Of a DNA stretch of 64,000 nucleotides, positions 13,418 to 63,485 are shown piece by piece. The position numbers and the translations under genes were made by a program. Location: assembly GCA_034521515.1 (NCBI GenBank), contig JAXHMH010000004.1, positions 64,485 to 128,484 of the forward strand, read 5' to 3'. The notes beneath the pieces are model-generated. The model searched no databases and was not told where the DNA came from. It was given only the letters and a program-made list of their open reading frames with translations. The DNA comes from Candidatus Saccharimonadota bacterium (GTDB lineage Bacteria > Patescibacteriota > Saccharimonadia > Saccharimonadales > JAXHMH01). Numbering within the stretch: the first letter of the stretch is position 1; the number at the start of each line of letters is the position of its first letter.

Positions 13418-16400
13418 TGCGCGGCTATAACACAGGAAACAATATTGCAGATTTTGATGCCGTCCGGCTGGCTGTGGCTAGTTCACAGGATATTCTTGAG
13501 TGGAGCTACGGTGAAGTTGCCAAGCCAGAAACAATTAATTATCGTACACAAAAACCTGAACGCGATGGACTATTTTGCGAACGGATATTTGGCCCGGTTA
13601 AAGATATTAATCCACACGACGCCAAGTATAAAGGTGTTAGATCACGAGAAGCCGCAGTTGACAAAAAAGGTGAAATTGTTACCAAAAGTATTGTCCGCCG
13701 TGAGCGAATGGGGCATATAAATCTCGCTGCACCGGTTACCCATATTTGGTTTTTGCGTGGTGCACCGTCGGCAATCGGCCTGCTGCTTGGCATGACTGTC
13801 AAAAATCTCGAGCGAGTCACCTATTTTGCGAGTTATATCGTAAAGTCGGTCGATATCGAAAAACGAGACCAGCTTTTGGCAGATAAAGAAGCTGAATTTG
13901 CCGCGGCGCAAGAAGCCATAAAATCACGCTATGAGAATGAAGCAAAAGCTGAAGATGCTAATGTCAAAGCTCTCGCTGAGATGCAGACCAAAGAAATTGA
14001 AGAAATTACTGAAGAGTTTGAAGAGTTCAGGTCTCAAGTAAACAGTCTGGTTAAGATGAACTTAATAAGTGAAGCTGATTATCGGGCACTTCCTGATGAA
14101 CTGGCGGAAGTCGTCACAGTTGGTATGGGTGGAGCCGCCCTAAAAGATCTGCTGGAAGACATTGATCTTGATCAGCTTATTCAAGACTTGCAAGCCGAGT
14201 CAGAAGAGGCAAAAGGTCAACGTAAGAAAAAGCTAATGAAACGGCTTCGTTTACTTGAGAATATGCAAAACGCCAATATCAAACCTTCAAGTATGTGCGT
14301 TTCTGTGTTGCCGGTTATTCCTCCGGATTTGCGGCCAATGGTGCAACTAACTGGTGGACGATTTGCAACCAGTGATTTGAATGATTTGTACCGCCGTGTA
14401 ATTAATCGAAATAATCGTCTGAAAAAACTAATCGAATTAAATGCTCCAGAAGTAATTCGCCGTAACGAACAGCGCATGTTGCAAGAAGCAGTTGATGCGC
14501 TGATTGACAACAATAATGCCCGGTCAGGTCGGGCGGTGGCAGCTACTGGGCAAAGACGACGCCTTAAATCACTTAGTGACATGCTTAAAGGTAAGCAGGG
14601 TCGTTTCCGTCAGAACTTGCTAGGTAAACGAGTTGATTACTCGGGTCGTTCTGTCATTGTCGCCGGTCCCGAGCTTAAGATTAATGAGTGCGGTCTGCCA
14701 AAAATGATGGCACTAGAGTTGTTTAAGCCGTTTGTGATAGGCAACTTAATAGCAAATGAGCACGCGCATAATATTCGATCTGCAACCCGTATGATTGAAA
14801 CTAACGAAACTGCTGTATGGGACGCACTTGATGAGGTGATCCACGGTAAATACGTATTACTTAACCGTGCTCCTTCATTGCACAGACTTTCGGTTCAAAC
14901 CTTCCAGCCACGACTAATTGAAGGCAAAGCCATCCAATTACATCCGCTTGTCTGTAAAGGTTTCAATGCCGACTTTGATGGCGATCAAATGGCAGTACAT
15001 CTACCACTTTCGGACGAAGCTCAGGCAGAAGCTAGAAACATAATGGTGAGCAGCAAAAACTTGTTAAAACCAGCCGACGGCTCTCCGGTACTTCATATAG
15101 AACAAGATATTGTGCTTGGTTGCTACTACTTAACCTATCAGCACGGTGACATAGCCAGTAAAGTGTTTGACTTCACTGACGTAGCTGAAGCGTTAATGGC
15201 GTATGATCTAAACAATATTAGTCTACAAAGCAATGTGCGGATTCCGTTCAGAGGTGAACTACGTGAGACTACGTTAGGACGGATTTTGTTCAACGAAATT
15301 TTTCCTGAAGATTTCCCATACCTCAATGAAGCAATGACCAAAAAACGAATTACGGCCACTATGGCGTTAGTTTACCAGATGTATGGTCAATCTAAGACAG
15401 CTGAAATTGCTGATGACCTAAAAGATATTGGCCTGGAATTCGCTACACACTCTGGTCTTAGCATGGGCTTGTCCGACTTTACAGATATTAAGGGTTTGGA
15501 CAAGATTATGAAGGATGGAGAGGATAAAGCTACTTTAATTAGCGATCAGTTTGACCAAGGGTTTATCACCGATGAGGAACGATACCGATTAACGGTTGAT
15601 AACTGGATGAAAACTGATACAAACGTTCAGTCGGTGCTTAGCGAGCAGTTTACTAACGAGAACAGCGCTATGTCAGTGGCCGTTGTTTCTGGTGCTCGCG
15701 GTAATATCGGCCAGGTTAAAACAGCGGTAGGTATGCTCGGTGTCACAACCGATGCAAGCGGCCGTGCAATCGAACTTCCAATCCGTTCTAACTACAAGAC
15801 TGGCTTGACTCCGCTAGAGTACTTTACGGCCACGCGAGGTGCACGTAAAGGTATGATTGACACCGCACTGAAAACCGCCGACTCTGGGTATTTGACTCGT
15901 CGGTTGGTTGATGTATCTCAAGATGTCTTTACCATTGATGAAGATTGCGATGACCCAGGATTTCCGCTCTATCGAAGCGACGCTAAAGAAATCGGTATTT
16001 CGTATGCGCAACGACTAACCGGTCGATATGCGGCTGAAAACATTGCAAAATATGTTAAAGCAGGTGAGCTGATTACTGAAGACGTGGCTGTCGAAATTGA
16101 GAAAGATGAAAGCCTTGATTGTATCCGTATAATGAGCGTTCTTTCATGTACCAACGTACGTGGCGTATCGCAGAAATCGTACGGCATTGATCCAGCAACA
16201 GGACAGTTGGTTAGTATCGCGCATCCAATTGGAGTAATTGCGGCACAAAGTATCGGTGAACCTGGTACGCAGTTGACACTTAAAACTTTCCACTCTGGTG
16301 GTGTGGCCGGTGAGGACATTACCACTGGTCTGCCCCGAGTTGAGGAGTTGTTTGAAGTTCGAACGCCAAAAGGTCATGCATTCCTTTCTGAAATTACCGG

Positions 16401-17244
16401 CGTTGTGAGCACCTGGGAAGAAGGTGAGCGCTACATAGTACAAGTTGCAGCGGATGATAAAGATAAAGTCGAGCTGAAAATTGACCAAAGAAATGTTCAG
16501 ATCGCTGAAGGTAATGAGGTAGTAAATGGTGACGTACTTGCTGCAAACGAAGACGGCTCGGATCCTTTAATCGCCCCCGTAGCCGGTAAAGTGCACCTCA
16601 CCAAGAAGCTAATTTCTATTTCTCCGAACAGTAAAAGTATTGTGCGTTATGAAATACCTGGTTTCAAACAGATCGTTGTCAAAGATGGCGACAAAGTGGA
16701 GGCTGGGCAGCGGCTCACAAACGGATCGATTAATCTGCATGAGTTGATGAAGCTTAAAGGTGTCGAAGCCACTCAGCGCTATATAATGAATGAAGTCTTA
16801 CGTATATTTGCATCACAAGGTCAGAACATTTCTGATAAGCACCTTGAAGTGATTGTCAGACAGATGTTTAGCAGAGTTCAAATAGACGAAACAGGCGATA
16901 GCGAATTTGTAACCGGCGATACAGTTAGCAAGCTTTCGGTTGTAGAGACAAACGAACGACTAGCTGCTGAAGGTAAGAAACCAGTTAAGTATGTACAATT
17001 GTTGCTTGGTATAACCAAGGCGTCGTTGAGTACTGACTCGTTCTTAAGTGCTGCAAGCTTCCAAGATACTACTAGAGTTCTGATTGGTGCTGCAACCAGT
17101 GGTCGAGTCGATCACTTGTACGGACTTAAAGAAAACGTCATACTTGGTCGACGAATCCCGGTAGGTACTGGTTACTTGCCAGACGTCGATGGCGATGGTT
17201 TTACTGATACCGACGTACTCGATGAAGGAAACGACGAAGCTTGA
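13417..17244 (+). CDS. rpoC: DNA-directed RNA polymerase subunit beta'
   Basis: 1275 aa; catalytic NADFDGDQMAVH motif. Confidence 0.97.
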   Translation: MRGYNTGNNIADFDAVRLAVASSQDILEWSYGEVAKPETINYRTQKPERDGLFCERIFGPVKDINPHDAKYKGVRSREAAVDKKGEIVTKSIVRRERMGHINLAAPVTHIWFLRGAPSAIGLLLGMTVKNLERVTYFASYIVKSVDIEKRDQLLADKEAEFAAAQEAIKSRYENEAKAEDANVKALAEMQTKEIEEITEEFEEFRSQVNSLVKMNLISEADYRALPDELAEVVTVGMGGAALKDLLEDIDLDQLIQDLQAESEEAKGQRKKKLMKRLRLLENMQNANIKPSSMCVSVLPVIPPDLRPMVQLTGGRFATSDLNDLYRRVINRNNRLKKLIELNAPEVIRRNEQRMLQEAVDALIDNNNARSGRAVAATGQRRRLKSLSDMLKGKQGRFRQNLLGKRVDYSGRSVIVAGPELKINECGLPKMMALELFKPFVIGNLIANEHAHNIRSATRMIETNETAVWDALDEVIHGKYVLLNRAPSLHRLSVQTFQPRLIEGKAIQLHPLVCKGFNADFDGDQMAVHLPLSDEAQAEARNIMVSSKNLLKPADGSPVLHIEQDIVLGCYYLTYQHGDIASKVFDFTDVAEALMAYDLNNISLQSNVRIPFRGELRETTLGRILFNEIFPEDFPYLNEAMTKKRITATMALVYQMYGQSKTAEIADDLKDIGLEFATHSGLSMGLSDFTDIKGLDKIMKDGEDKATLISDQFDQGFITDEERYRLTVDNWMKTDTNVQSVLSEQFTNENSAMSVAVVSGARGNIGQVKTAVGMLGVTTDASGRAIELPIRSNYKTGLTPLEYFTATRGARKGMIDTALKTADSGYLTRRLVDVSQDVFTIDEDCDDPGFPLYRSDAKEIGISYAQRLTGRYAAENIAKYVKAGELITEDVAVEIEKDESLDCIRIMSVLSCTNVRGVSQKSYGIDPATGQLVSIAHPIGVIAAQSIGEPGTQLTLKTFHSGGVAGEDITTGLPRVEELFEVRTPKGHAFLSEITGVVSTWEEGERYIVQVAADDKDKVELKIDQRNVQIAEGNEVVNGDVLAANEDGSDPLIAPVAGKVHLTKKLISISPNSKSIVRYEIPGFKQIVVKDGDKVEAGQRLTNGSINLHELMKLKGVEATQRYIMNEVLRIFASQGQNISDKHLEVIVRQMFSRVQIDETGDSEFVTGDTVSKLSVVETNERLAAEGKKPVKYVQLLLGITKASLSTDSFLSAASFQDTTRVLIGAATSGRVDHLYGLKENVILGRRIPVGTGYLPDVDGDGFTDTDVLDEGNDEA

Positions 17245-54796: not shown

Positions 54797-55231
54797 ATGG
54801 CTGAGAAAAAGGCTGTTAAAGCAAATATCAAAATGAAACTTAAAGGCGGACAAGCCAGTGCTGCGCCTCCGGTCGGGAGTGTTCTTGGGCAATACGGTGT
54901 AAACATGATGGATTTTATAAATCCATTTAATGAAGCTACTAAGGATAAGATGGGCCTGGATGTGACAGTCCATATCGCAATATACACTGATAAAACTATT
55001 AATTGGCGAGTTGTAGGCACCCCGACAGACGATCTTATTCGTAAGGCTTTGGGCATTTCGAAGGGTTCTGGTAAGCCAAATACCGATAAACTACCCAAGA
55101 AATTGTCAGATGCTCAGCTTGCAGAAATTGCCGAAACTAAAGCAGAAGACATGAATACCGATGACATTGATGCTGTTAAACGCATGGTCGCTGGCACCGC
55201 CCGCTCTATGGGTGTAGAGGTAGAGGGCTAA
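54797..55231 (+). CDS. rplK: 50S ribosomal protein L11
   Basis: PPVGSVLGQYGVN, 144 aa. Confidence 0.96.
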   Translation: MAEKKAVKANIKMKLKGGQASAAPPVGSVLGQYGVNMMDFINPFNEATKDKMGLDVTVHIAIYTDKTINWRVVGTPTDDLIRKALGISKGSGKPNTDKLPKKLSDAQLAEIAETKAEDMNTDDIDAVKRMVAGTARSMGVEVEG

Positions 55232-55236
55232 CTATT

Positions 55237-55395
55237 ATGACTAGGGAAACTATCCATATCGCTGGCCTAGTTGAAATTTTAAATTCTGACAAATCCTGGG
55301 ATGAGCGCGAAGATCAAGTGAGGTCATTAGTAGAAATGCTGAGTGTACTGGGGATGTACGAGAAGCAACTGGCAGAGTACCAATGTGACTGGTAA
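55237..55395 (+). CDS. 52-aa hypothetical ORF between rplK and rplA
   Basis: Below the ORF-track cutoff; ATG 5 nt after the rplK stop; MTRETIHIAGLVEILNSDKSWDEREDQVRSLVEMLSVLGMYEKQLAEYQCDW. Confidence 0.25.
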   Translation: MTRETIHIAGLVEILNSDKSWDEREDQVRSLVEMLSVLGMYEKQLAEYQCDW

Positions 55396-55623
55396 CGCTG
55401 GGCATTCATGATCAGAATCTTGAGATTGTCACGCGGCTGTTCGGTGCCGAATGCTGCATGCTCATGTGTTGCCAGACGGAAGCATTTACCATTGTAGGCA
55501 TCCGTACAGAATTTAATAATTAATAATTTGTGGGACCCGGCCTTCCACAGGAAAGCCGGGGTTAATACCACGACCCCAACAGTAAACACGAAAGTTACCG
55601 TGGGGCAGAAAGGATAAGACATT

Positions 55624-56586
55624 ATGGCAAAAAAAGCAGAATTACTTGAGGAAGCAAAAGCCTTAAAGCTTGATGTTAATCAAAAAAACACCATTGCTGA
55701 AATTGAGGCAGCCATACAGAGCCATGAGCAAGGAGCTGTGAGTAATGAGGAAGCTCAAGGCTCTGACGACAAGGTCGTCGTTGCCAAGGCCGGCAAGCGA
55801 AGTGCCAAGGCTATAAAAGAGGCAGAAGAACTACAGGCCAAAGAAGAGCGCAAAGCACAAACTGCAACAGACGAAGAAACTACAGCCAAAAAGACCCACA
55901 AACCAGCTCGTTCACGACTAGAACGCCGAGCTAAAGGGTACAAAAACGTACAAAAACTTATAGAGGCAGGCAAACAGTATGGCGTGGCTGATGCTGTTGA
56001 GTTAGCGAGCAAAACCAGCCCGGTCAAATTCGATGCTACGGTTGAACTTCACGTTAATCTAAATGTAGATCCGAGACAGGCTGATCAAAATATCCGTGAT
56101 ACAGTTGTTTTGCCAGCAGGGACAGGCAAAGAAACAAGAGTGGCGGTGTTTGCCGATACCGCAGGCGTCGCAACAGCAAAAAAAGCGGGGGCAGACATTG
56201 CGGGAGAAGATGAATTATTACAACAACTGGATAAAGAACAGTTCGATTTTGATGTGCTCATTGCAACTCCAACAACTATGCCGAAACTAGGTAAATATGC
56301 TCGATTGCTTGGGCCAAAAGGACTTATGCCGAACCCAAAAAGCGGCACCGTAACAACCGACATAGCCAAAGCTGTTGAAGAAGCGAAAGCTGGTAGAGTT
56401 GAATATCGTGTTGATAGTACCGGAATTATCCATATGGCCGTTGGTAAAGTGAGCTTTGGTAAACATAAGCTTTTTGATAACGCACGTGCAGCCATCAAGA
56501 GCATTAGGGGTAACAAGCCAGCTAGCGTAAAGTCGTCATTCATTACATCAGCTCACGTTACAACCAAGTACTGCCCGATTCCATAA
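55624..56586 (+). CDS. rplA: 50S ribosomal protein L1 with a roughly 95-aa N-terminal extension; 3' end apparently frameshifted
   Basis: uL1 core from about residue 100 (KFDATVELHVNLNVDPRQADQNIRDTVVLPAGTGK). The ORF ends ...HVTTKYCPIP, whereas the -1 frame continues ...SIKVDVNDVNAL to 56618. Confidence 0.85.
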   Translation: MAKKAELLEEAKALKLDVNQKNTIAEIEAAIQSHEQGAVSNEEAQGSDDKVVVAKAGKRSAKAIKEAEELQAKEERKAQTATDEETTAKKTHKPARSRLERRAKGYKNVQKLIEAGKQYGVADAVELASKTSPVKFDATVELHVNLNVDPRQADQNIRDTVVLPAGTGKETRVAVFADTAGVATAKKAGADIAGEDELLQQLDKEQFDFDVLIATPTTMPKLGKYARLLGPKGLMPNPKSGTVTTDIAKAVEEAKAGRVEYRVDSTGIIHMAVGKVSFGKHKLFDNARAAIKSIRGNKPASVKSSFITSAHVTTKYCPIP

Positions 56587-56637
56587 AAGTTGACGTCAAT
56601 GATGTCAACGCGCTTTAGCTTTGCTACAATACAGTCA

Positions 56638-56826
56638 ATGACTAACCGACAGCGACCTTCCAGTATTCGGGTGCAATGCAAGGCGTTTGCGATGCGCGCA
56701 GTAAAGCGTATTTCTGATACGCTGAACGAGCACAGCAACAAACAACAATGCAGTGCCCCGAAAAGTGCTGAAGCAAAACGGGCTTTGCTCGTTTTAGATC
56801 AGCTCTGGTCTGGAGGTCGGGTGTGA
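56638..56826 (+). CDS. 62-aa basic hypothetical ORF coupled to the downstream kinase
   Basis: ATG 56638 within ORF-track 56590..56826; its stop overlaps the GTG start at 56823; TACAAT -10-like box at 56625-30. Confidence 0.3.
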   Translation: MTNRQRPSSIRVQCKAFAMRAVKRISDTLNEHSNKQQCSAPKSAEAKRALLVLDQLWSGGRV

Positions 56827-57584
56827 TTGTTATAGGAATGACCGGCCCAATCGGCCATGGTAAAAGCACCTTTGCTAGCGCCATTAAAGAGCTCGAGCCA
56901 ACAACGATTCATTTAGAGTCTAGTCTGATAATCGCCGAAATAGCTAACGCTATGCACGCAACCTTAACCGATATTCCTGATCCTTACGATGTAAACTCTC
57001 TAAATCAATGGCTCCGGTCACTTCCTGCAATACTACTTGATGTAATGAATGTTAAATGTGACATGAGTCAGATTCGTCTGGATCCGGCTGATATTGAACA
57101 GCATCCCGCCGAATATCAAAAACTCATTTTGCACGTAGAGAACCTGCAACGTGAGCCTCATTTGGCAAAACAAGAGATAACCAAAGACAACAAAGAGGCT
57201 TATCGACCAATGTTGCAATGGTTAGGCGGTTATTTAGTAGAAAAAGTTAAACCCACCATTTGGTATGACGAGGTTGTAAGACGTGTTCAAAAAGCACGAG
57301 AGTCCGGATGCAAACTTGTTATCGTTGGTGGATTACGATACCCGTCAGATGCAACGGCTCTGCGAAAGATCGGTGGAATTATCATCAAGGTTTATCGCCC
57401 CGGTCACTTACAAAACGACATGTTGGATCCAACAGAGCGAGAGCGCGACAATATTAGAGTGGATAGTACTGTGATGAGTAACGGCTCGATTGAAGATGTA
57501 CCTCGTTGCGCAAAACTGATCATCAAAGACATCAAAGCCGACAACCTGCAAACACTCTACCAAACGGTTGACGCCCGTAAATAA
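56823..57584 (+). CDS. P-loop nucleotide kinase, dNMP-kinase/dephospho-CoA-kinase-like
   Basis: 253 aa; IGMTGPIGHGKST Walker A, VIVGGLRYPSDA...IIKVYRP resembles phage-type dNMP kinases; GTG start. Confidence 0.6.
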   Translation: MIVIGMTGPIGHGKSTFASAIKELEPTTIHLESSLIIAEIANAMHATLTDIPDPYDVNSLNQWLRSLPAILLDVMNVKCDMSQIRLDPADIEQHPAEYQKLILHVENLQREPHLAKQEITKDNKEAYRPMLQWLGGYLVEKVKPTIWYDEVVRRVQKARESGCKLVIVGGLRYPSDATALRKIGGIIIKVYRPGHLQNDMLDPTERERDNIRVDSTVMSNGSIEDVPRCAKLIIKDIKADNLQTLYQTVDARK

Positions 57585-57644
57585 CTAGGCACTTGTATCA
57601 AAACTTGCTTAGCATATATTGTTACGCGTACAATACAGTCTATT

Positions 57645-58139
57645 ATGAAAGCTAAAGAGGTGACCAAACGGCCAGATTGGGATCAATATTTTTTTGGAAT
57701 TATGGATTCCGTAGCCACACGAGCAACTTGCGATAGAGGTCGTTCTGGATGTGTAATAACACGAGAAAACCGGATTATCGCTACCGGGTACGTGGGAGCA
57801 CCTCCAGGGTTACCACATTGTGATGAAGTTGGTCATGAATTCATGGAAAGAGTCAATCCGGATGGCTCAAAAAGTACTCATTGTATACGTACTGCTCACG
57901 CTGAAGAGAACACTATTGTTCATGCTGCACGCTTTGGCGTGAAGCTCAAAGGAGCAACCCTGTATTGTAATATGACGCCATGCTATACCTGCGCCAAAAT
58001 GATTGTTACAGCCGGTATTACTCGCGTAGTAATTCGCAATGATTATCACGCTGGTCAAAAGAGTAAAGAAATGTTTGATAACGTGGGTATTGAATGGCAT
58101 CTACTTGATAAAAAAGTAGTAACCTACGAGAAAATGTAA
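57645..58139 (+). CDS. dCMP deaminase (ComEB family)
   Basis: Zinc motifs HAEENT and PCYTCAKMI. Confidence 0.88.
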   Translation: MKAKEVTKRPDWDQYFFGIMDSVATRATCDRGRSGCVITRENRIIATGYVGAPPGLPHCDEVGHEFMERVNPDGSKSTHCIRTAHAEENTIVHAARFGVKLKGATLYCNMTPCYTCAKMIVTAGITRVVIRNDYHAGQKSKEMFDNVGIEWHLLDKKVVTYEKM

Positions 58140-58471
58140 TGTCCATTGATTTAACAAAACTACAAAAAGAAGTCATGCGCAATAAGCTTGAAAAGGGTTT
58201 TAACACAACCGATATTGCGCAAGAATTTTGCCGCGCCTATGAGGAGCTTTCGGAAGCATTCTCTAAATTGAACAAACATGAAGATGGTGTTGGCGAAGAG
58301 TTTGCCGACGTTATTATTTTTATTCTTGGAATGAGCGAGATATTAGGATTCGACTTAGAAAAAGAGATTACCGACAAAATCCAAAAAAATAAAAATCGAA
58401 AATATAAAAAAATTAAAAGTCCCGATGGCAAAGATGTATTTGTACGCATAAAGACTCCCCAAGACCCGTGA
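58139..58471 (+). CDS. MazG-like nucleoside triphosphate pyrophosphohydrolase
   Basis: 110 aa; EELSEA...EEFADVIIFILGMSE metal-binding helices; TAATG overlap with the upstream gene. Confidence 0.75.
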   Translation: MSIDLTKLQKEVMRNKLEKGFNTTDIAQEFCRAYEELSEAFSKLNKHEDGVGEEFADVIIFILGMSEILGFDLEKEITDKIQKNKNRKYKKIKSPDGKDVFVRIKTPQDP

Positions 58472-58581
58472 TCCGCCGTTAGTTATAAAAATTACTACGT
58501 GTTTAATTGGTCGGTTTCGCAAAGAACTATTACAATATAGGTAGTTGATCCGGTGGGCACAGCTATAAAAGGAGGGAACGA

Positions 58582-59577
58582 GTGCAGCGCGGATTATTTC
58601 TCGTAATTGAAGGAACTGACGGATCGGGTAAAGGTACGCAGTTTAAGTTATTGGTAGACCGGCTCGAGCGTGAGGGTTATGACGTCGCTACATTTGATTT
58701 CCCCCAGTATGAACAAGATTCCAGCTTTTTTGTACGCGAGTATTTAAATGGCAAGTATGGAACAGCTGAGGACGTCGGTCCGTATACCGGCTCATTGTTT
58801 TACGCACTTGATAGGTACCACGCCGCTTATAAGATTAAAGAAGCACTGGCTAAAGGTAAGATTGTGCTAGCTAACCGTTTTACCGGTAGCAACATGGCAC
58901 ACCAAGGAACAAAATTTTCAAATACTGAAGAACGGCGCGGTTATTTTATCTGGCTTGATAATTTAGAGTTCCGTATGCTTGGTATACCACGACCTAATCT
59001 ATCTTTGGTGCTTCGAGTTCCAGCCGAGACCGCTCAGCAACTGGTTGACACTAAAGATACACGATCTTATACCGATAAAAAACGTGACATTCATGAAGCC
59101 GATATCAACCATCTGCGTCGGTCTGTTGAGGTGTACGACGATCTTTGCCAGCTGTTTCCAAAAGATTTTTTACGAATTGATTGTGTGCGCGGTGGCGAAC
59201 TTATGGATATTGAAACCATCAACAAGCATTTATGGCAAACGATTGAACCGTTACTGCCTGAACAATCAAAGAAAGGAACCGGTAAAATTATGAAGAAGAA
59301 AGTTGATAACCCATACATCCGTAAAACAGATGAAGGTTTTATAATTACTGACGAAGGTAAGAAGTTTCTTGAAGAGTCGATAACCAGCACAGATGATAAC
59401 GTGTATGCCTTTAATGAAAACCTAAGCCCTGTAACTGTTGCCGCAGCAATGGCTCGATTGTCCCGTCGTGGAGACGATATGCGAGTTACGGTGCTGGATG
59501 AGTTCGCCCAAGGCGGCTCAAAGGACGAAAAACTACTCCAACGTGTTATTACAGCCTACGGCGACGATCCAAGCTAA
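58582..59577 (+). CDS. tmk: thymidylate kinase fused to the N-terminal part of a ThyX-like protein
   Basis: LVIEGTDGSGKGTQ P-loop and Tmk core in the first ~215 aa. Residues from ~235 on (...VTVAAAMARLSRRG...VITAYGDD) continue in the same frame into the next ORF after two stops. Confidence 0.8.
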   Translation: MQRGLFLVIEGTDGSGKGTQFKLLVDRLEREGYDVATFDFPQYEQDSSFFVREYLNGKYGTAEDVGPYTGSLFYALDRYHAAYKIKEALAKGKIVLANRFTGSNMAHQGTKFSNTEERRGYFIWLDNLEFRMLGIPRPNLSLVLRVPAETAQQLVDTKDTRSYTDKKRDIHEADINHLRRSVEVYDDLCQLFPKDFLRIDCVRGGELMDIETINKHLWQTIEPLLPEQSKKGTGKIMKKKVDNPYIRKTDEGFIITDEGKKFLEESITSTDDNVYAFNENLSPVTVAAAMARLSRRGDDMRVTVLDEFAQGGSKDEKLLQRVITAYGDDPS

Positions 59578-59589
59578 CAACGGAGTTAG

Positions 59590-60891
59590 GCTCTCCATGT
59601 CGTAGTCGAAGGTGCGTCAAACTTGCTAACTAAAAAGCTGGAGTGGGGACGATTAGCGTCGTATTTAGAACAATCAACAAGGTACATATACTTTGATCAA
59701 AAAGACAATAGCGGCAAGTATAAATACTATACGCCAGAACATTTTGACAAAAAAACCGCAAAAAAATATGACAAAACTATGGATCAAATCTTTGATAACT
59801 ATTCAGAGCTGGTTCATAAACTCACTGATTTCGTCAGAAAACACGACCCAACCCCAGAAGAAGAACGCGATATACCATGGAAAGGTGCCACGCGCGCCCA
59901 AGCTTGTGACGCAGCTCGTGCAGTACTGCCGGTTGCTACAAAATCTACCGTTGGTATTTATGCCTCAGGTCAAGCTCTAGAAAGTTTAATCATGCACCTG
60001 ATGAGCGACGAGCTTAAAGAGGCAAAAAACGTCGGTCAGAAAATCCTAAAACACGGACGTAAAGTCACGCCAACGTTTCTAGAACGTGCTGATAAACCTG
60101 AACGCGGTGGCGCGACGATTGCGTACCGTGCCAATACGCATACAGCGGTCGCTGATCTTGCCCAGAAACACTTACCAGAAAATCACGCCGGTGAAACTGA
60201 GCCAGTACAACTTACATCCTATTGGCCGCGCAACGAAATGGATCTTATTCCTGATATGTTATTTGAGCACAGTAATTTGCCGCATGATGAAATTAGACAA
60301 CAGGTTAACCAGTGGCCGATTAAGCGAAAAGAAGAGGTTTTTAACGCTTACATGGGTGAACGTCTAAATCGTCGACATAAGCCAGGCAGGGCAATCGAAA
60401 AAGCGCATTACAGCTGGGATCTTGTCTGTGATTATGGCATATTCCGAGATTTGCAACGACACCGCATGGTAGACGACCTCAATTGGCAACAATTAACTCC
60501 GCGATATGGCTATGAGATACCAAAGTTGGTAGAAGACGCTGGACTGACTGATCTGTTTGAAGCTTGTTTTGATCTTAGTTTAGAGCTTTATAGCCAACTA
60601 CAGTCAGCAGGCTACGCGCTAGATGCTCAATATGCCACCTTGCTAGGTCATAAAATGCGCTGGAAGGTTACATATAATGCTCGTGAAGCGTTTCATTTGC
60701 ATGAACTACGTACCAGCCCTCAGGGACACTCAGGCTACCGTAAGCTCGTTCTAGAGATGCACGAAAAATTAGCTGAAGTTCACCCAATGCTAGCCGAAGC
60801 AATGAAATTTGTTAATCAAGGCGAAGACCCGAAGTTGGCTCGACTAGCCGCCGAACGTTACACTCAATTTAAACTAGATCAGATTCAGTAG
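59590..60891 (+). CDS. thyX: ThyX-like FAD-dependent thymidylate synthase (tandem Thy1 domains), continuation of the upstream ORF
   Basis: Same frame as 58582..59577; LASYLEQSTRYIYF (degenerate RHR..S....S.RY) and second-domain LQRHRMVD. There is no convincing own start (ORF-track TTG 59623). Confidence 0.7.
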   Translation, partial: ALHVVVEGASNLLTKKLEWGRLASYLEQSTRYIYFDQKDNSGKYKYYTPEHFDKKTAKKYDKTMDQIFDNYSELVHKLTDFVRKHDPTPEEERDIPWKGATRAQACDAARAVLPVATKSTVGIYASGQALESLIMHLMSDELKEAKNVGQKILKHGRKVTPTFLERADKPERGGATIAYRANTHTAVADLAQKHLPENHAGETEPVQLTSYWPRNEMDLIPDMLFEHSNLPHDEIRQQVNQWPIKRKEEVFNAYMGERLNRRHKPGRAIEKAHYSWDLVCDYGIFRDLQRHRMVDDLNWQQLTPRYGYEIPKLVEDAGLTDLFEACFDLSLELYSQLQSAGYALDAQYATLLGHKMRWKVTYNAREAFHLHELRTSPQGHSGYRKLVLEMHEKLAEVHPMLAEAMKFVNQGEDPKLARLAAERYTQFKLDQIQ

Positions 60892-61228
60892 TCTGATTGC
60901 TAGCCTTGTATTCAAAGTTTAGCGGTTCTTCACCATGTGGGGTTTCAACGGTAACAATATCAACACATAGTTTATGACCAAGCTCTGTTACTACATAAGT
61001 AGCCTTATCGTCTTCGAGAACCTCTCCAACAATTCTTAACTCTTTACAAAACTTATCGTGGGCAATGTCGTGAACCTCAATACCCAGATTTACTGGAAAA
61101 TTTGCCCTAAAACTATCCCGGCCTCCGTATAGAAAGTCGTAGTAGTTGTCAAGCACTGCTTGTGCCATCTCAATACCGACATCTAGAGGGCTCCGTTCTG
61201 ATAAAACCTCCTGCTCGCTTTGACTCAT
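60869..61228 (-). CDS. hypothetical protein
   Basis: 119-aa acidic ORF convergent with thyX (23-nt overlap); no family recognised. Confidence 0.45.
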   Translation of the reverse strand: MSQSEQEVLSERSPLDVGIEMAQAVLDNYYDFLYGGRDSFRANFPVNLGIEVHDIAHDKFCKELRIVGEVLEDDKATYVVTELGHKLCVDIVTVETPHGEEPLNFEYKASNQTTESDLV

Positions 61229-61318
61229 AGTCTCAGCATCAAAAACTGCATCAGTCGTAGCGGAGCCCGGCTTTGTCTATCGTGTTGATGCTCCATTTTC
61301 GTCTCCATATTATCCCGT

Positions 61319-61348
61319 AAAAAAACCGGATCCTCGGTTGGAATCCGG
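61319..61348 (-). terminator. minus-strand intrinsic terminator
   Basis: Minus strand reads CCGGAT-TCCAACCGAGG-ATCCGG followed by TTTTTTT. Confidence 0.6.
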
Positions 61349-61689
61349 CTCTGTGTTTTCGTTTAATTTCGTGCTACAAGATTCCAACCATTATTTTTTT
61401 GCCACAATTGCTAGTAAACCGACTTTCTGCTCTGGATGACTTTGCAATAAAGTTCATTGTTTACCATGAGTATTAAAACAGCACCTTAAGTCGCCTCTTG
61501 TCAAGTCATACGTCCTGGTGTATTGTGGAATTTATGATATTAAACATGAAGACACGCCACTCCTCTCTCGGCCTACCAGGGCTGTGCTTCAGTATGGTTG
61601 AAGCCTGAGCGATAAAGGTTTCTAGCACAGCCCAAGAATAGTCAGGGCTTCACCGCCTGATTTTTTATATGTATAAGGAGTGTTCAATA

Positions 61690-61818
61690 ATGATTACAAA
61701 CGAAAATATACAAGGTGGGTACGACCCTAGTGAAATTCCTACACAAGAGGAGATTGACCGCTACAATCAGAACATCCGACGACAGAGAGAAGCCGAAATA
61801 ATGTCTGTAGTGATATAG
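61690..61818 (+). CDS. 42-aa hypothetical ORF
   Basis: AAGGAG SD 8 nt upstream; MITNENIQGGYDPSEIPTQEEIDRYNQNIRRQREAEIMSVVI; another frame stays open for about 40 further codons. Confidence 0.3.
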   Translation: MITNENIQGGYDPSEIPTQEEIDRYNQNIRRQREAEIMSVVI

Positions 61819-62010
61819 GTTCGACAGCAACGGGTGGCTCAATACAAGTAATTCGACAAGTACCTTACAGTGGTGATGAAGAGCCAATCGAGCAATTTAT
61901 CGGACGCAGCACTCTGGAACTTTCCAGCTTGAGGTTAATTCGTTAATGTGTTTACTGGACTATGATTTTTAGCGAAGTGTCCAAACTGCTGCAAGAAAAA
62001 ATCAGGTTTA

Positions 62011-62197
62011 CCGCACAGTGAGTTTTCCGAGATTCTCTAGATAATTGCTGAGGAGTAATGCCCGGCATAGCCGGGTCACTCGAAAGTCTACTGCTGGGTT
62101 GACCCGGCAGTGAGCTTTCGAGACTCCTCAGATAATTGCTGAGGAGTAATGCCCGGCATAGCCGGGTCACTCGAAAGTTAATGGGCCCGGGTTGACA
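62011..62197 (+). repeat. two tandem ~91-bp structured units ending in duplicated GGGTTGAC
   Basis: Identical 49-nt core AGATAATTGCTGAGGAGTAATGCCCGGCATAGCCGGGTCACTCGAAAGT at 62039-87 and 62130-78; GGGTTGAC at 62096 and 62188. Confidence 0.9.
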
Positions 62198-62220
62198 AAC
62201 AGAGGGAAACAGAGTATACT
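62192..62220 (+). promoter_or_regulatory. rplJ-rplL promoter
   Basis: TTGACA (62192-97), 17 nt, TATACT (62215-20). Confidence 0.6.
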
Positions 62221-62340
62221 TGCGTTACCAAAGACAGCGACGGTTTTGTACGCTTATTGCGCATAAAAACATGATAATGTCGCCGAGGCAGCAGCAAAAA
62301 TTTAGAATTTTGATTCTAGATTTGAGAATGTTGAATCTTT

Positions 62341-62372
62341 AAAGTCTTTGGCAATGCCAAAGACTTTTTTAT
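62341..62372 (+). terminator. terminator/attenuator hairpin in the rplJ leader
   Basis: AAAGTCTTTGGC-AAT-GCCAAAGACTTT followed by TTTTAT, about 100 nt before the rplJ ATG. Confidence 0.65.
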
Positions 62373-62470
62373 TAGGTAACAGTGTGTTAATGCCGATGGG
62401 GCGCGAGAACTTACAAAACCATAAACTAGACACTAGCAACTAGCGTCTAACCACTACTCTAAGGAGTTAT

Positions 62471-62998
62471 ATGGCGTTAACAAAAGATAAGAAAAACCAA
62501 GTCATTGCCGAAGTCAGCCAGCTACTGGCAGATTCAAAGATGACTGTCATCGCCGCCTATCAAGGCACGCCGGTAAAAGCTATGCAACAGCTTCGACGCG
62601 AAGGTCGTGAAAACGGAACTACACTAAAGGTCGTAAAAAATCGCCTTGTTAAAAAAACGATCGAAACGACCGATAATGTGAAAGACACTGATACAAGCGC
62701 CTTAAACGGTATGCTGTTATACGCGTTCAATAGCCAAGATGAAGTTGCCCCAGCACAAGTGCTTGCTGACTATGCTGTAAAAAGCAACCTACGCTTCAAT
62801 TTGTCGGCGCAATTTCAGAGAACGGTAAGTTCTTGCCGCCAGAAGAAGTTCAGGCGCTTTCAGCACTACCAAGTACAGACGAGAACCCCATTGCTCAAGT
62901 CCTCGACGCTAACTTCACCACTAGATGACGTTACAAATGGGTTGTCTGGCAACCTTCACGCGCTGCTTGACGGCGTAGAAACAAAAGCTGTCGCCTAG
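62471..62998 (+). CDS. rplJ: 50S ribosomal protein L10 (internal segment apparently out of the ancestral frame)
   Basis: The N-terminal 104 aa and the last ~30 aa are uL10-like. Residues ~105-145 (SNLRFNLSAQFQRTVSSCRQKK...) are not, while the -1 frame reads KQPTLQFVGAISENGKFLPPEEVQALSALPSTDENPIAQVL. Confidence 0.85.
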   Translation: MALTKDKKNQVIAEVSQLLADSKMTVIAAYQGTPVKAMQQLRREGRENGTTLKVVKNRLVKKTIETTDNVKDTDTSALNGMLLYAFNSQDEVAPAQVLADYAVKSNLRFNLSAQFQRTVSSCRQKKFRRFQHYQVQTRTPLLKSSTLTSPLDDVTNGLSGNLHALLDGVETKAVA

Positions 62999-63101
62999 GG
63001 CTTACAGTACAAAGTGACAAGTGTATAAAGTAAAAAGCAATAACACTTTATATACTCTCTACTTTCAAACTTTTAACTAACTAAATCGGAGATTTAATAT
63101 T

Positions 63102-63485
63102 ATGGCAAAAGACCTAAAGAAACTTGCAGAAGAATTAACTGGTTTGACTGTACTAGAAGTCAACGAACTTAAAACAATCTTAAAAGATGAATACGGCATT
63201 GAGCCTGCAGCAGCTGCAGCTGTAGTTGCTGGTCCGGCAGCCGGCGGTGAGGCTGCACCAGCAGAAGACGAACAAACTGAGTTTGACGTTGTTCTAAAAG
63301 ATGCAGGCGCACAAAAAGTTGCCGTTATTAAGGCTGTTAAAGATTTGACGGGTCTCGGACTTGGCGAAGCCAAGGCAGTAGTAGACGGTGCACCAAAACC
63401 GGTACTCGAAAAAGCGGCCAAAGAAGACGCTGAGAATGCTAAGAAAGCACTCGAAGAAGCAGGCGCTACTGTAGAACTAGCCTAA
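63102..63485 (+). CDS. rplL: 50S ribosomal protein L7/L12
   Basis: Ala-rich hinge, [27 protein letters not shown]. Confidence 0.96.

What the first reader, a model, noticed from the sequence alone, without database searches (positions are those of the whole stretch)
56587..62470. A complete dCMP-to-dTDP module is inserted between rplA and rplJ
The rplK-rplA and rplJ-rplL pairs are normally contiguous. Here 5.9 kb intervene. The block carries a small basic ORF, a phage-type dNMP-kinase-like P-loop protein, dCMP deaminase, a MazG-like NTP pyrophosphohydrolase and a Tmk::ThyX-like fusion, all tightly coupled through GTGTGA and TAATG overlaps. A convergent unknown ORF and about 1.2 kb of structured non-coding DNA follow. 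The enzyme set covers dCTP/dUTP to dCMP/dUMP to dTMP to dTDP. It resembles the nucleotide-conversion cassettes of phages, which also underlie modified-base pathways. A Tmk-ThyX fusion with tandem Thy1 domains, the first having a degenerate RHR motif, is unusual.
Basis: partly seen in the sequence, partly recalled or inferred. Interest (0 to 1): 0.6.

Follow-up and report, generated by a model that had tools for sequence, protein, structure and literature searches.

The report
Conserved thymidylate operon splitting ribosomal cluster
The 5.9-kb block between the ribosomal genes rplA and rplJ is not a foreign or phage-like insertion but the usual, inherited thymidine-nucleotide operon of Saccharibacteria, and its "non-coding" tail holds a conserved regulatory RNA that matches no Rfam family.

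Summary
The genes are real: a T4-gp1-like dNMP kinase, dCMP deaminase, a MazG-like pyrophosphatase and a Tmk::tandem-ThyX fusion sit between rplA and rplJ in a Candidatus Saccharibacteria MAG. The block is not an insertion. In all 58 related loci where both flanks are in reach, thymidylate genes fill the same gap (median 6.05 kb; 5.9 kb here). The 754-793 aa fusion is intact in about 70 of 80 species. Closest relatives of every gene are Saccharibacteria (55-81% identity); phage relatives reach only 31-47%. The one local novelty is that dCMP deaminase plus MazG occupy the slot held by dCTP deaminase in 67 of 82 relatives. An independent assembly of the same organism reads straight through them and also repairs a double frameshift in rplJ, so they are assembly errors. 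The "small basic ORF" is probably a promoter-bearing spacer. The "1.2 kb non-coding DNA" contains a known L10 leader, a frameshifted small-protein gene, and a 110-nt terminator/antiterminator RNA. That RNA is conserved in 45 of 83 relatives, shows covariation and has no Rfam match. Verdict: an ordinary lineage-typical operon, with a modestly interesting RNA by-product.

The parts
54797..56586 (+). rplK (54797-55231) and rplA (55624-56586): upstream flank of the interval
   Evidence: Pfam Ribosomal_L1 1.6e-55; tblastn synteny map; full-length single-frame match to relatives' L1
56587..56822 (+). 237-nt spacer. The mechanical 78-aa ORF (56590-56826) is probably not a gene. Promoter-like ATGTCA-17-TACAAT at 56602-56630. 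GGAGG Shine-Dalgarno at 56811-56815 for the GTG at 56823.
   Evidence: No family hit; no relative in 83 loci; relatives have only 60-100 nt here; promoter scan; sequence
56823..57584 (+). dNMP-kinase-like P-loop protein (T4 gp1 family)
   Evidence: PF21448 29.5 bits (cut-off 27.1); PHROG 139 dNMP kinase 1.2e-20; 464 relatives, the 119 best other hits 62-76% identical, named ones Saccharibacteria/Patescibacteria; between rplA and tmk in at least 18 of 82 relatives
57645..58139 (+). Zn-dependent dCMP deaminase (ComEB type; HAE and PCxxC motifs present)
   Evidence: PF00383 9.1e-23; TIGR02571 109.8 bits, below its cut-off; PHROG 174 6.8e-43; same slot in L020, L050, L062
58139..58471 (+). MazG-like all-alpha NTP pyrophosphohydrolase (EELSE...EEFAD metal motif), translationally coupled to the deaminase (TAATG)
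   Evidence: PF12643 28.3 bits; PHROG 3301 pyrophosphatase 6.9e-13; weak PDB hits 1vmg, 4qgp, 7ody; orthologues 81% and 71% in L020 and L062
58582..60891 (+). Tmk::tandem-ThyX fusion gene (about 769 codons). Tmk domain about 58582-59256; ThyX N-domain about 59290-60200 (WGR...SYLEQSTRY); ThyX C-domain about 60201-60891 (RHR...TPRY, ELRTSPQGH).
   Evidence: PF02223 5.7e-20 and PF02511 4.7e-33; intact 754-793 aa orthologues in about 70 of 80 species; about 80% identity to L003 and L004 along the whole length; AF2 models match Mtb Tmk (TM 0.84) and T. maritima ThyX (TM 0.68-0.70)
59569..59592 (+). Garbled patch with in-frame TAA (59575-59577) and TAG (59587-59589): an assembly error, not biology
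   Evidence: Motif AYGDDSVQQL invariant in 62 of 62 relatives; Logan assembly of run SRR26473340 is 99.5% identical and reads AYGDDSVQQLVGLH; 11 of 18 differences fall in 59559-59591
60869..61228 (-). Convergent orphan ORF, 119 aa, acidic, function unknown
   Evidence: No hit in Pfam, NCBIfam, PHROGs or PADLOC. Relatives carry unrelated convergent ORFs at the same place. The exact product is not on record elsewhere.
61324..61350 (.). Bidirectional intrinsic-terminator hairpin (CCGGAT...ATCCGG with T-runs on both strands); likely end of the thymidylate operon
   Evidence: Terminator scan on both strands; 86-93% identical copies in L061 and L075 at the equivalent place
61559..61668 (+). Conserved 110-nt leader RNA. 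P1 (GGGCUGUGC/GCACAGCCC), inner UUCA...UGGUUGAAGCC, a variable hairpin, then an intrinsic terminator whose 5' arm can instead pair with GGUUGAAGCC (antiterminator). Promoter-like TTGTCA-17-TATTGT at 61498-61526.
   Evidence: Covariance model 92.7 bits, E 5.5e-21; 45 of 83 related loci, and 32 of the 80 metagenome loci fetched, carry it; covariation exceeds 500 of 500 shuffles on covariation score, percent paired and double-change cells for both the terminator and antiterminator folds; no Rfam match
61690..61932 (+). Small-protein gene behind the RNA (AAGGAG + ATG), split over two frames by assembly indels. Carries the family motifs VPYSGDEEP and C-terminal WNFPA.
   Evidence: Three-frame translation; relatives with (V/I)PYxGTE...xLPA-COOH in L009, L018, L019, L030, L039, L061, L071, L116, L133
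62025..62178 (+). Two copies of a 63-nt unit (91-nt period) forming a very stable imperfect palindrome; lineage-specific, role unknown
   Evidence: Repeat finder, 92% identity; only two copies in the window; MFE -94.7 kcal/mol, z = -6.5; the Logan contig breaks inside the repeat
62192..62379 (+). rplJ promoter-like site (TTGACA-17-TATACT, 11/12) and L10 leader with terminator 62341-62367
   Evidence: Promoter and terminator scan; Rfam RF00557 51.7 bits versus gathering 44, E 4e-6
62471..63485 (+). rplJ (62471-62998; about 62779-62906 is out of frame through two compensating assembly deletions) and rplL (63102-63485): downstream flank
   Evidence: Pfam; the alternative frame restores KKQPTLQFVGAISENGKF...; the Logan assembly has the intact frame

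Best explanation
The interval is the vertically inherited housekeeping thymidylate operon of Saccharibacteria. In this class it lies between the rplKA and rplJL gene pairs.

The steps below are inferred from domain families; none was assayed.
- The MazG-like pyrophosphatase converts dCTP (and probably dUTP) to the monophosphate.
- The Zn-dependent dCMP deaminase makes dUMP.
- The tandem-ThyX part of the fusion methylates dUMP to dTMP, using FAD, methylene-tetrahydrofolate and NADPH.
- The N-terminal Tmk domain of the same polypeptide phosphorylates dTMP to dTDP.
- The gp1-like kinase phosphorylates other salvaged dNMPs.

The two ThyX halves carry complementary parts of the ThyX motif. The N half keeps S...SxRY and the C half keeps RHR and the R...H segment. 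The fusion probably acts as a pseudo-heterodimer with fewer complete active sites than a homotetramer.

In this lineage the deaminase + MazG pair has displaced the dCTP deaminase (DCD) that fills the same slot in most relatives. It supplies the same product, dUMP, from dC nucleotides.

Transcription probably starts in the rplA-kinase spacer and ends at the bidirectional terminator at 61324-61350.

Downstream lie a separate attenuator-controlled small-protein gene and then the L10-leader-controlled rplJL operon.

The two stop codons in the fusion are assembly errors.
For: - Organism: Candidatus Saccharibacteria MAG.
- Synteny: in 82 related loci, 58 have both rplA and rplJ in reach, and all 58 carry tmk::thyX between them. 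The rplA-to-rplJ distance is 2975 / 6051 / 12641 nt (min / median / max), against 5885 nt here. The nearest relative, L083, shares the whole neighbourhood from YgjP to rplL.
- Fusion: 754-793 aa and intact in about 70 of 80 species representatives. More than 7850 relatives exist, annotated 'thymidylate synthase ThyX/thymidylate kinase'. There are 628 clusters at E<=1e-30.
- Folds: Tmk TM 0.84 to 1g3u; ThyX TM 0.68-0.70 to 1o26/3g4a.
- Displacement: DCD lies immediately upstream of tmk in 67 of 82 loci, and deaminase(+MazG) in the same slot in 4.
- Lineage residence: kinase 62-76%, deaminase 55-66% and MazG 71-81% identical to Saccharibacteria orthologues, against at most 31%, 47% and 35% in 50,697 phage genomes. 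None were found in IMG/VR.
- Catalytic motifs are present in all five enzymes.
- Stops are artefacts: an independent assembly is intact, and the same MAG also mis-assembles the essential rplJ.
- Background: Patescibacteria lack de novo nucleotide synthesis and rely on nucleotide interconversion (PMC11665869).
Against: - No enzyme was assayed, and substrate specificities of the MazG-like protein and the gp1-like kinase are inferred from context only.
- The tandem ThyX is divergent. It scores 65.9 bits against an 87.9-bit cut-off for TIGR02170. A family profile does not reach PDB ThyX chains by sequence at E<=0.01. Neither half has the full RHRxxSxxxxSxR motif.
- The kinase and MazG families are best known from phages.
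- The deaminase + MazG pair is patchy (3-4 of 82 relatives), so that piece was exchanged at some point and is not strictly vertical.
- Operon boundaries rest on consensus scans only.
Confidence: 0.85

Rival explanations
1. One reading: a phage-derived nucleotide-conversion cassette inserted into the ribosomal cluster, possibly feeding a modified-base pathway.
For: The gp1-like kinase, dCMP deaminase, MazG and ThyX are a typical phage gene set, and PHROG families match. The kinase's only phage relatives are actinophages; by general knowledge, not tested here, cultivated Saccharibacteria live on Actinobacteria. There is a weak MazZ resemblance (7ody, E 0.14).
Against: The arrangement is present in all 58 flank-complete relatives. 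Orthologues are 55-81% identical within Saccharibacteria, against at most 47% in phages. No close relative was found in IMG/VR. Composition is flat across the block at GC 0.36-0.47. There is no integrase, no hydroxymethylase, no transferase and no other modifying enzyme.
Confidence: 0.04
2. The P-loop protein plus the deaminase are a split anti-phage dCTP-deaminase (nucleotide-depletion defence) rather than housekeeping enzymes.
For: Both proteins touch the same PADLOC model PDLC02373 'dCTPase', in the order kinase-like then deaminase: 16 bits and 58 bits. NCBIfam anti-phage dCTP deaminase scores 53 bits.
Against: Scores are far below the cut-off (53 versus 400 bits) and cover only the roughly 50-residue zinc core. 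In at least 18 relatives the same kinase sits next to a DCD-fold enzyme instead. The genes are embedded, with translational coupling, in an operon with tmk::thyX next to ribosomal genes. An organism without de novo synthesis needs dUMP from dC nucleotides.
Confidence: 0.04
3. The tandem ThyX is not a thymidylate synthase but a diverged flavin enzyme with another substrate or product, or a pseudo-enzyme scaffold for Tmk.
For: Neither half has a complete ThyX motif. Sequence scores are below NCBIfam trusted cut-offs. In relatives that carry ThyA/DHFR the ThyX motifs decay while the fused polypeptide is kept: 3 of 10 intact against 65 of 68, Fisher p = 5e-6. This shows the domain can persist without catalysis.
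Against: That same decay pattern argues that, where ThyA is absent (as here), the ThyX part is the thymidylate synthase under selection. The complementary halves together supply RHR, S...SxRY and R...H, and about 130 positions are invariant across 40 sequences. No other thymidylate synthase lies in the locus. A dUMP-producing enzyme lies immediately upstream.
Confidence: 0.07
4. The two stop codons are real, and thyX is a recent pseudogene or split gene in this strain.
For: They are in the deposited MAG sequence, and NCBI annotated the 331-aa product.
Against: An independent assembly of run SRR26473340, 99.5% identical, has the intact motif. The same MAG region also has compensated frameshifts in the essential rplJ and in the small ORF, which the independent assembly lacks for rplJ. 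The rest of the 2.3-kb gene is undamaged.
Confidence: 0.04

Closest known systems
Flavin-dependent thymidylate synthase ThyX (T. maritima TM0449, PDB 1O26; Pfam PF02511)
   Same: Same fold (Foldseek TM 0.68-0.70), Pfam Thy1 4.7e-33, RHR and SxRY elements present, and the same place in the pathway after a dUMP-forming enzyme.
   Different: Two Thy1 domains in one chain, each with half of the ThyX motif (WGR..S..SxRY, and RHR..(+3 aa)..TxRY), fused to Tmk. Only 16-20% identical. Below the TIGR02170 cut-off. Activity untested.
Thymidylate kinase (M. tuberculosis-type Tmk, PDB 1G3U)
   Same: P-loop GTDGSGKGTQ, DRY motif, fold TM 0.84, NF005923 1.2e-36.
   Different: It is the N-terminal domain of a 770-aa fusion. 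Some family members have a degenerate P-loop (P0125, P0152).
Bifunctional DHFR-TS of protozoa and plants (fusion of consecutive thymidylate-cycle enzymes)
   Same: Consecutive steps of dTMP metabolism joined in one polypeptide, which plausibly favours channelling or co-regulation.
   Different: Different enzymes (ThyX + Tmk, not ThyA + DHFR) and no homology. Channelling here is speculation.
dCTP deaminase DCD / bifunctional DCD-DUT (Pfam PF22769)
   Same: It occupies the identical slot upstream of tmk::thyX in 67 of 82 relatives and would deliver the same product pool (dUTP/dUMP).
   Different: The window has no DCD here. It has a CDA-fold dCMP deaminase plus a MazG-like pyrophosphatase, a non-orthologous displacement.
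All-alpha MazG-like NTP pyrophosphatases (e.g. Sulfolobus SSO3215 1VMG; dCTP pyrophosphatase DCTPP1 as a functional analogue, recalled from knowledge)
   Same: About 110 aa, EExxE...ExxD metal motif, Pfam PF12643, 1vmg E 0.002.
   Different: Substrate unknown. The dCTP/dUTP preference is inferred only from the gene it is coupled to and the gene it replaces.
Phage T4 gp1 deoxynucleoside monophosphate kinase (PDB 1DEK; PF21448)
   Same: Family hit just above the gathering score (29.5 versus 27.1), PHROG 139 at 1.2e-20, N-terminal P-loop.
   Different: A chromosomal, lineage-wide Saccharibacteria gene. At most 31% identity to any phage copy, over half the length. Substrates unknown.
Ribosomal protein L10 leader (Rfam RF00557)
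   Same: 62210-62379 passes the gathering score (51.7 versus 44), ends in a terminator and lies directly upstream of rplJ.
   Different: Nothing notable; a regular member.
Transcription-attenuating riboswitches and leader RNAs (three-way-junction aptamer followed by mutually exclusive terminator/antiterminator)
   Same: The 61559-61668 RNA has a conserved core closed by P1. It has a terminator and a covarying alternative helix between the core and the terminator's 5' arm, followed by an SD and ATG.
   Different: It matches none of 4227 Rfam models. The ligand or protein partner is unknown. Downstream genes are heterogeneous.

Membership tests
ThyX / flavin-dependent thymidylate synthase | Thy1 fold | tested here: met
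   Pfam PF02511 4.7e-33, two stretches. The AF2 model of the window's 433 aa (pLDDT 83) matches 1o26/3g4a with TM 0.68-0.70, probability 1.00.
ThyX / flavin-dependent thymidylate synthase | ThyX motif RHRxxSxxxxSxR in the domain | tested here: inconclusive
   The N domain reads WGRLASYLEQSTR (S, S and R kept; R and H lost). The C domain reads RHRMVDDLNWQQLTPR (RHR kept; first S lost; 3-aa insertion; S->T). The motif is complete only if the two halves complement each other.
ThyX / flavin-dependent thymidylate synthase | Curated equivalog score (TIGR02170 >= 87.9 bits) | tested here: not met
   65.9 bits for the window part and 58 bits for the intact L003 orthologue.
ThyX / flavin-dependent thymidylate synthase | FAD-, NADPH- and CH2-THF-dependent conversion of dUMP to dTMP | not testable with these tools
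   Supported only indirectly: the motifs decay when ThyA/DHFR are present.
Thymidylate kinase | P-loop, DR(Y/F) motif, Tmk fold and family score | tested here: met
   PF02223 5.7e-20. GTDGSGKGT and LDRY are present. Fold TM 0.84 to 1g3u in the orthologue model. NCBIfam scores are below the equivalog cut-offs (126 versus 193 bits).
dCMP deaminase (CDA fold) | Zinc motifs H(A/C)E and PCxxC; family score | tested here: met
   HAEENTI and PCYTCAKM in the translation. PF00383 80.5 bits versus 25. The ComEB equivalog cut-off is not reached (109.8 versus 219).
MazG-like NTP pyrophosphohydrolase | All-alpha domain with EExxE...ExxD metal-binding residues; Pfam gathering score | tested here: met
   YEELSEA...GEEFADV. 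PF12643 28.3 bits versus 27. Substrate not testable.
T4 gp1-type dNMP kinase (PF21448) | Pfam gathering score and N-terminal P-loop | tested here: met
   29.5 versus 27.1 bits. The match covers only profile positions 122-229, and the P-loop is GMTGPIGHGKST. A marginal member; PHROG 139 at 1.2e-20.
Phage-borne or horizontally inserted nucleotide-modification cassette | Absent from close relatives' rplA-rplJ gap; close homologues on viral contigs; presence of a base-modifying enzyme | tested here: not met
   Present in 58 of 58 flank-complete relatives. No IMG/VR relatives. Phage identity at most 47%. No modifying enzyme among the ORFs.
Anti-phage dCTP deaminase (PADLOC dCTPase / NF041025) | Single protein with kinase-like N domain and deaminase C domain, reaching the model cut-off | tested here: not met
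   Two separate genes. 53 bits versus a 400-bit cut-off. PADLOC 16 and 58 bits over short cores.
L10 leader RF00557 | Rfam gathering score, position upstream of rplJ | tested here: met
   51.7 bits versus 44, model positions 1-138 of 138, 91 nt upstream of rplJ.
Riboswitch (metabolite-binding leader) | Conserved structured core with covariation and an expression platform | tested here: met
   P1 is 98% paired with 2 double-change pairs. The terminator has 4 and the antiterminator 7 double-change pairs. No shuffle of 500 reached the observed covariation score, percent paired or double-change cell count. Slid controls give 14-49% paired against 89-96% for the proposed pairs.
Riboswitch (metabolite-binding leader) | Direct binding of a small-molecule ligand | not testable with these tools
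   Downstream genes (small xLPA proteins, truncated LeuA-like genes, a hydrolase) do not point to one ligand. A protein-binding attenuator is equally possible.

The most novel reading that the evidence does not exclude
The 110-nt RNA at 61559-61668 may be a new riboswitch class (a ligand-sensing transcription attenuator) specific to Saccharibacteria. It would control a set of small secreted-looking proteins ((V/I)PYxGTE...xLPA) and truncated isopropylmalate-synthase-like genes. In these symbionts, which import most metabolites from their host, such an element would report what the cell senses. Separately, the Tmk::tandem-ThyX fusion could be a pseudo-heterodimeric, substrate-channelling 'thymidylate synthasome' shared in its stand-alone tandem form with other CPR bacteria and DPANN archaea.
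Probability: 0.3. Interest if true: 0.65.

Novelty: new member of a known kind. Interest (0 to 1): 0.35.

Why it matters
For the finding as posed, it matters mainly as a correction. A block that looks like a phage cassette wedged into a universally conserved ribosomal cluster is in fact the ancestral layout of a whole bacterial class. The apparent gene break is a MAG assembly error, so it should not be pursued as a modified-base system.

It does yield useful annotation logic. The deaminase + MazG pair replacing dCTP deaminase in the same slot gives a context-based function (dCTP/dUTP -> dNMP) for an uncharacterised MazG subfamily. The decay of ThyX motifs wherever ThyA/DHFR arrive supports ThyX activity of the odd tandem enzyme.

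Saccharibacteria cannot make nucleotides de novo. This operon is therefore probably essential, and the fusion is a candidate lineage-specific target.

The conserved RNA with no Rfam match is a concrete, testable candidate regulator in a group where almost nothing is known about gene regulation.

Tried and rejected
1. Small inversion as the cause of the garbled ThyX patch. Reverse-complementing about 22 nt removes the stops by eye, but a systematic scan of all inversions improved the mean alignment score to 62 homologues only from 38.0 to 39.3. Rejected, and later superseded by the independent assembly.
2. Chimeric contig joining two species at the patch. This was suggested when a 'ThyXC' query gave only about 35% identity to relatives. 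That query was out of frame, which was my error. A proper alignment shows about 80% identity to L003/L004 along the entire fusion. Rejected.
3. Stop-codon reassignment (TAA/TAG read as Gln). TAA aligns with an invariant Q, but the Logan sequence has CAA, and several neighbouring bases and indels differ too. Rejected.
4. Frameshift errors throughout the window. Overlapping ORF pairs elsewhere turned out to be distinct adjacent genes. The verified defects cluster at 59.5-63 kb.
5. The conserved RNA as a known family (SRP RNA, T-box, purine, TPP and others were considered by eye). cmscan at E<=10 on 241 nt gives only noise hits.
6. Homology of the convergent ORF (60869-61228) with the convergent ORFs of L001 and L083. 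None at E<=10.
7. Literature. No paper in the held library links Saccharibacteria with ThyX, and none describes a Tmk-ThyX fusion or a tandem ThyX.
8. A family profile against PDB sequences does not reach ThyX at E<=0.01, so residue-level equivalences to T. maritima ThyX rest on motif inspection only.

Full report
WHAT IS THERE.

The window comes from a Candidatus Saccharibacteria MAG. The 331-aa Tmk ORF is identical to NCBI 'hypothetical protein U5K77_04480' on a 128,593-bp contig. The gene order on the + strand is:
- secE, nusG, rplK (54797-55231) and rplA (55624-56586)
- a 237-nt spacer
- a P-loop protein of the T4 gp1 dNMP-kinase family (56823-57584; PF21448 29.5 bits; PHROG 139 1.2e-20)
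- a dCMP deaminase (57645-58139; PF00383 9e-23)
- a MazG-like pyrophosphatase overlapping it by TAATG (58139-58471; PF12643)
- Tmk plus two Thy1 stretches (58582-60891)

After these come a convergent orphan ORF (60869-61228), 1.24 kb without long ORFs, and then rplJ and rplL. rpoB and rpoC lie 45 kb upstream (9836-17244), not after rplL.

THE FUSION AND ITS TWO STOP CODONS.

Read from 58582, the frame is open for 770 codons except TAA (59575-59577) and TAG (59587-59589). These sit in a 24-nt patch that replaces AYGDDSVQQL, which is invariant in 62 of 62 orthologues.

Orthologous fusions are intact and 754-793 aa long in about 70 of 80 species representatives. The window protein is about 80% identical to the closest ones along its entire length.

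I tested and rejected a small inversion. I also rejected a chimeric contig; that idea arose from an out-of-frame query of my own.

The same part of the MAG has a compensated double frameshift in the essential rplJ. The alternative frame restores KKQPTLQFVGAISENGKFLPPEEVQALSALPS. It also has two frameshifts in a small ORF.

The decisive evidence is an independent Logan assembly of run SRR26473340.
- It carries the identical kinase, deaminase and MazG proteins.
- Its tmk::thyX gene reads through for 573 codons to the contig end, with ...AYGDDSVQQLVGLHVVVEGAS....
- It is 99.5% identical to the window, and 11 of the 18 differences fall in 59559-59591.
- A second Logan contig has an in-frame rplJ.

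The stops are therefore assembly errors, and the fusion is intact in the organism.

IS IT AN INSERTION?

No. They are titled Saccharibacteria, Saccharimonadales or Patescibacteria, apart from a few generically or differently labelled MAGs.

I mapped window proteins and proteins from two further relatives onto all loci.
- 58 loci have both rplA and rplJ in reach, and in all 58 tmk::thyX lies between them.
- The rplA-end to rplJ-start distance is 2975 / 6051 / 12641 nt (min / median / max), against 5885 nt here.
- The nearest relative, L083 (kinase 76% identical), shares the entire neighbourhood from YgjP, a PAS histidine kinase and a glycosyltransferase through to rplL.

The thymidylate genes between rplKA and rplJL are thus an ancestral feature of the class.

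Each gene is lineage-resident.
- The kinase has 464 relatives, and the 119 best other hits are 62-76% identical, on contigs up to about 1 Mb.
- The ThyX part has more than 7850 relatives.
- The best matches in 50,697 phage genomes are 31% (kinase, half length), 35% (MazG) and 47% (deaminase).
- IMG/VR holds no close relative.
- Composition is unremarkable.
- No integrase or base-modifying enzyme is present.

WHAT VARIES.

The slot immediately upstream of tmk::thyX holds a DCD-fold dCTP deaminase in 67 of 82 loci. It holds the window-type dCMP deaminase in 4 loci, with MazG in 2 of them: L020 (62% / 81% identity) and L062 (55% / 71%). About 10 loci carry a ThyA/DHFR/second-deaminase block instead.

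Relative to its nearest kin, the only thing 'inserted' in this organism is the 0.83-kb deaminase-MazG pair in place of DCD. This is a non-orthologous displacement. Because both versions must feed dUMP to ThyX, I infer that the MazG-like enzyme turns dCTP (and dUTP) into the monophosphate for the deaminase. This step is inferred, not shown.

Where ThyA/DHFR are nearby, the ThyX motifs are mostly lost although the fused polypeptide is retained. Motifs are intact in 3 of 10 such loci against 65 of 68 others, Fisher p = 4.9e-6. This is what one expects if the tandem ThyX is the working thymidylate synthase wherever ThyA is absent, as here.

THE TANDEM ThyX.

AF2 models were made for an intact orthologue (pLDDT 86) and for the window's 433 residues (pLDDT 83, pTM 0.80). 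They give a Tmk domain like M. tuberculosis Tmk (TM 0.84) and ThyX folds like T. maritima ThyX (TM 0.68-0.70, 16-20% identity).

The established ThyX motif RHRxxSxxxxSxR is split between the halves. The N domain has WGRLASYLEQSTRY. The C domain has RHR, then TPRY after a 3-residue insertion, plus an invariant ELRTSPQGH...YR segment. A pseudo-heterodimer in which the halves complement each other is the natural reading, but I could not superpose structures, so it stays an inference.

The family is large: 3152 clusters at 50% identity, 628 of them at E<=1e-30. It has two architectures. One is about 525-560 aa (tandem ThyX alone; named examples are in Woesebacteria and a DPANN archaeon). The other is about 720-800 aa (the Tmk fusion). 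Sources already call these proteins 'FAD-dependent thymidylate synthase' or 'ThyX/thymidylate kinase'. No paper in the held library discusses them.

THE REST OF THE INTERVAL.

The 78-aa 'small basic ORF' has no relatives, no family hit and no SD. It overlies a promoter-like site, and the kinase's GTG has its own GGAGG. I treat it as a spacer.

After the convergent orphan ORF comes a bidirectional terminator (61324-61350), conserved in L061 and L075.

Next comes a 110-nt element (61559-61668) that blastn found in about 40 of the 84 fetched loci, always on the thyX/rplJ strand. Its features are:
- P1, GGGCUGUGC/GCACAGCCC
- an almost invariant UUCA...UGGUUGAAGCC
- a variable hairpin
- an intrinsic terminator, CAGGCUUCAACC-GAAGCCUG-U5-6
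- AAGGAG and an ATG 10-20 nt further on

The terminator's 5' arm is the exact complement of GGUUGAAGCC.

Pair counts on 39 sequences support both folds. P1, P2 and the terminator are 95.8% paired, with 6 pairs carrying double changes. The antiterminator helix is 88.9% paired, with 7 pairs carrying double changes. No shuffle of 500 reached the observed covariation score, percent paired or double-change cell count. Slid controls are only 14-49% paired.

A covariance model finds the element once in the window (92.7 bits) and in 45 of 83 related loci. It also finds it in 32 of the 80 loci fetched from a metagenome pattern scan that reported 120 matching stretches; the other fetched loci are chance matches. 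Where flanks exist it again lies between thyX and rplJ. In L130, however, it directly precedes a 388-aa isopropylmalate-synthase-like gene with no thyX within 8 kb upstream. It matches no Rfam 15 family.

The downstream genes are heterogeneous.
- A recurrent family of small proteins with (V/I)PYxGTE and a C-terminal xLPA. The window's copy, 61690-61932, is split by indels but shows VPYSGDEEP and ...WNFPA.
- Truncated LeuA-like genes (L011, L041, L063, L100, L130).
- Others.

I read the element as a transcription-attenuating leader of unknown effector.

Further on are two copies of a 63-nt unit forming a very stable palindrome. Then come a near-consensus promoter (62192-62220) and a regular L10 leader (RF00557, 51.7 bits) with its terminator.

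VERDICT.

It missed the broken frame, which is an artefact, and it mislabelled a spacer and a gene-bearing stretch.

The pathway idea is reasonable. A split anti-phage dCTP deaminase is a remote alternative.

The module is a regular member of a lineage-wide, already annotated kind. The displacement of DCD, the ThyX decay pattern and the RNA leader with no Rfam match are the parts worth keeping.

Noticed in passing
window 61559-61668 (+); also L001-L083 and L085-L164, coordinates: Conserved 110-nt terminator/antiterminator leader RNA with covariation. Found in 45 of 83 related Saccharibacteria loci and in 32 of the 80 fetched metagenome loci. No Rfam 15 match. One copy in the 64-kb window.
   Followed up: yes
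window 61690-61932 (+); L009 12480-12674, L018 4075-4314, L019 3150-3599, L030 7861-8049, L061 13224-13766, L071 3550-4065: Family of small proteins behind that RNA, sharing a (V/I)PYxG(T/S)E(P/G) motif and a C-terminal xLPA end. The window copy is split over two frames. Function unknown. Not scanned against protein-family libraries.
   Followed up: partly
window 59559-59591, 61815-61930, 62779-62906: The deposited MAG has a cluster of consensus errors in 59.5-63 kb: a stop-containing patch in thyX, two frameshifts in a small ORF, and two compensating deletions in rplJ. Independent Logan contigs (L205, L206) of run SRR26473340 are intact for thyX and rplJ. Overlapping ORF pairs elsewhere in the window are distinct genes rather than frameshift products.
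   Followed up: yes
L002, L060, L067, L076, L080-L082 (fusion genes start near 10001, or as listed): In relatives that carry ThyA and/or DHFR next to tmk, the ThyX part of the fusion has lost RHR and/or SxRY, and is shortened to about 550-670 aa in some of them, but stays fused to Tmk. Motifs are intact in 3 of 10 such loci against 65 of 68 others, p = 5e-6.
   Followed up: partly
L130 8474-9784; L011 12830-14120; L041, L063, L100: The same RNA directly precedes a 388-390 aa isopropylmalate-synthase-like gene lacking the C-terminal regulatory domain (NF002086 249 bits, far below cut-off). In L130 this is outside the thyX-rplJ context. It is odd for organisms thought to lack amino-acid biosynthesis.
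   Followed up: partly
window 62025-62087 and 62116-62178: Two copies of a 63-nt unit (91-nt period) fold into a very stable imperfect palindrome (-94.7 kcal/mol, z = -6.5) just upstream of the rplJ promoter. Unique to this lineage. The Logan contig ends inside it.
   Followed up: partly
window 9836-17244 versus 62471-63485: rpoB and rpoC lie 45 kb upstream of rplJL rather than downstream of rplL. In relatives rplL is followed within a few kb by dnaX. The classical rplKAJL-rpoBC cluster is thus broken twice in this class.
   Followed up: partly
P0125, P0152, P0178 (proteins): Some Tmk::ThyX fusions have a degenerate Tmk P-loop (e.g. LESTHDTEQNKQ, IEGTEGVDRDQQ) and a deletion in the lid region while the ThyX part is well conserved. 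This is the mirror image of the ThyX decay seen elsewhere.
   Followed up: no
window 56823-57584; phage hits H1-H8: The only phage relatives of the gp1-like kinase are phages of Arthrobacter, Streptomyces, Microbacterium and Brevundimonas, mostly Actinobacteria (28-31% identity in the listed hits). By general knowledge, not tested here, Actinobacteria are the usual hosts of cultivated Saccharibacteria.
   Followed up: no
P0444, P0491/P0513: Stand-alone tandem ThyX proteins of about 540 aa, without Tmk, occur in Woesebacteria (CPR) and in a 'Candidatus Norongarragalinales' archaeon. The two-domain ThyX is therefore shared by reduced-genome symbiont lineages of both domains of life.
   Followed up: partly
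window 55237-55395; L001 6703-7014; L002 523-798; L083 6317-6872: A small unannotated ORF (or two) sits between rplK and rplA in the window and in relatives. L1 carries a lysine/alanine/glutamate-rich N-terminal extension of about 100 residues. Neither was examined.
   Followed up: no
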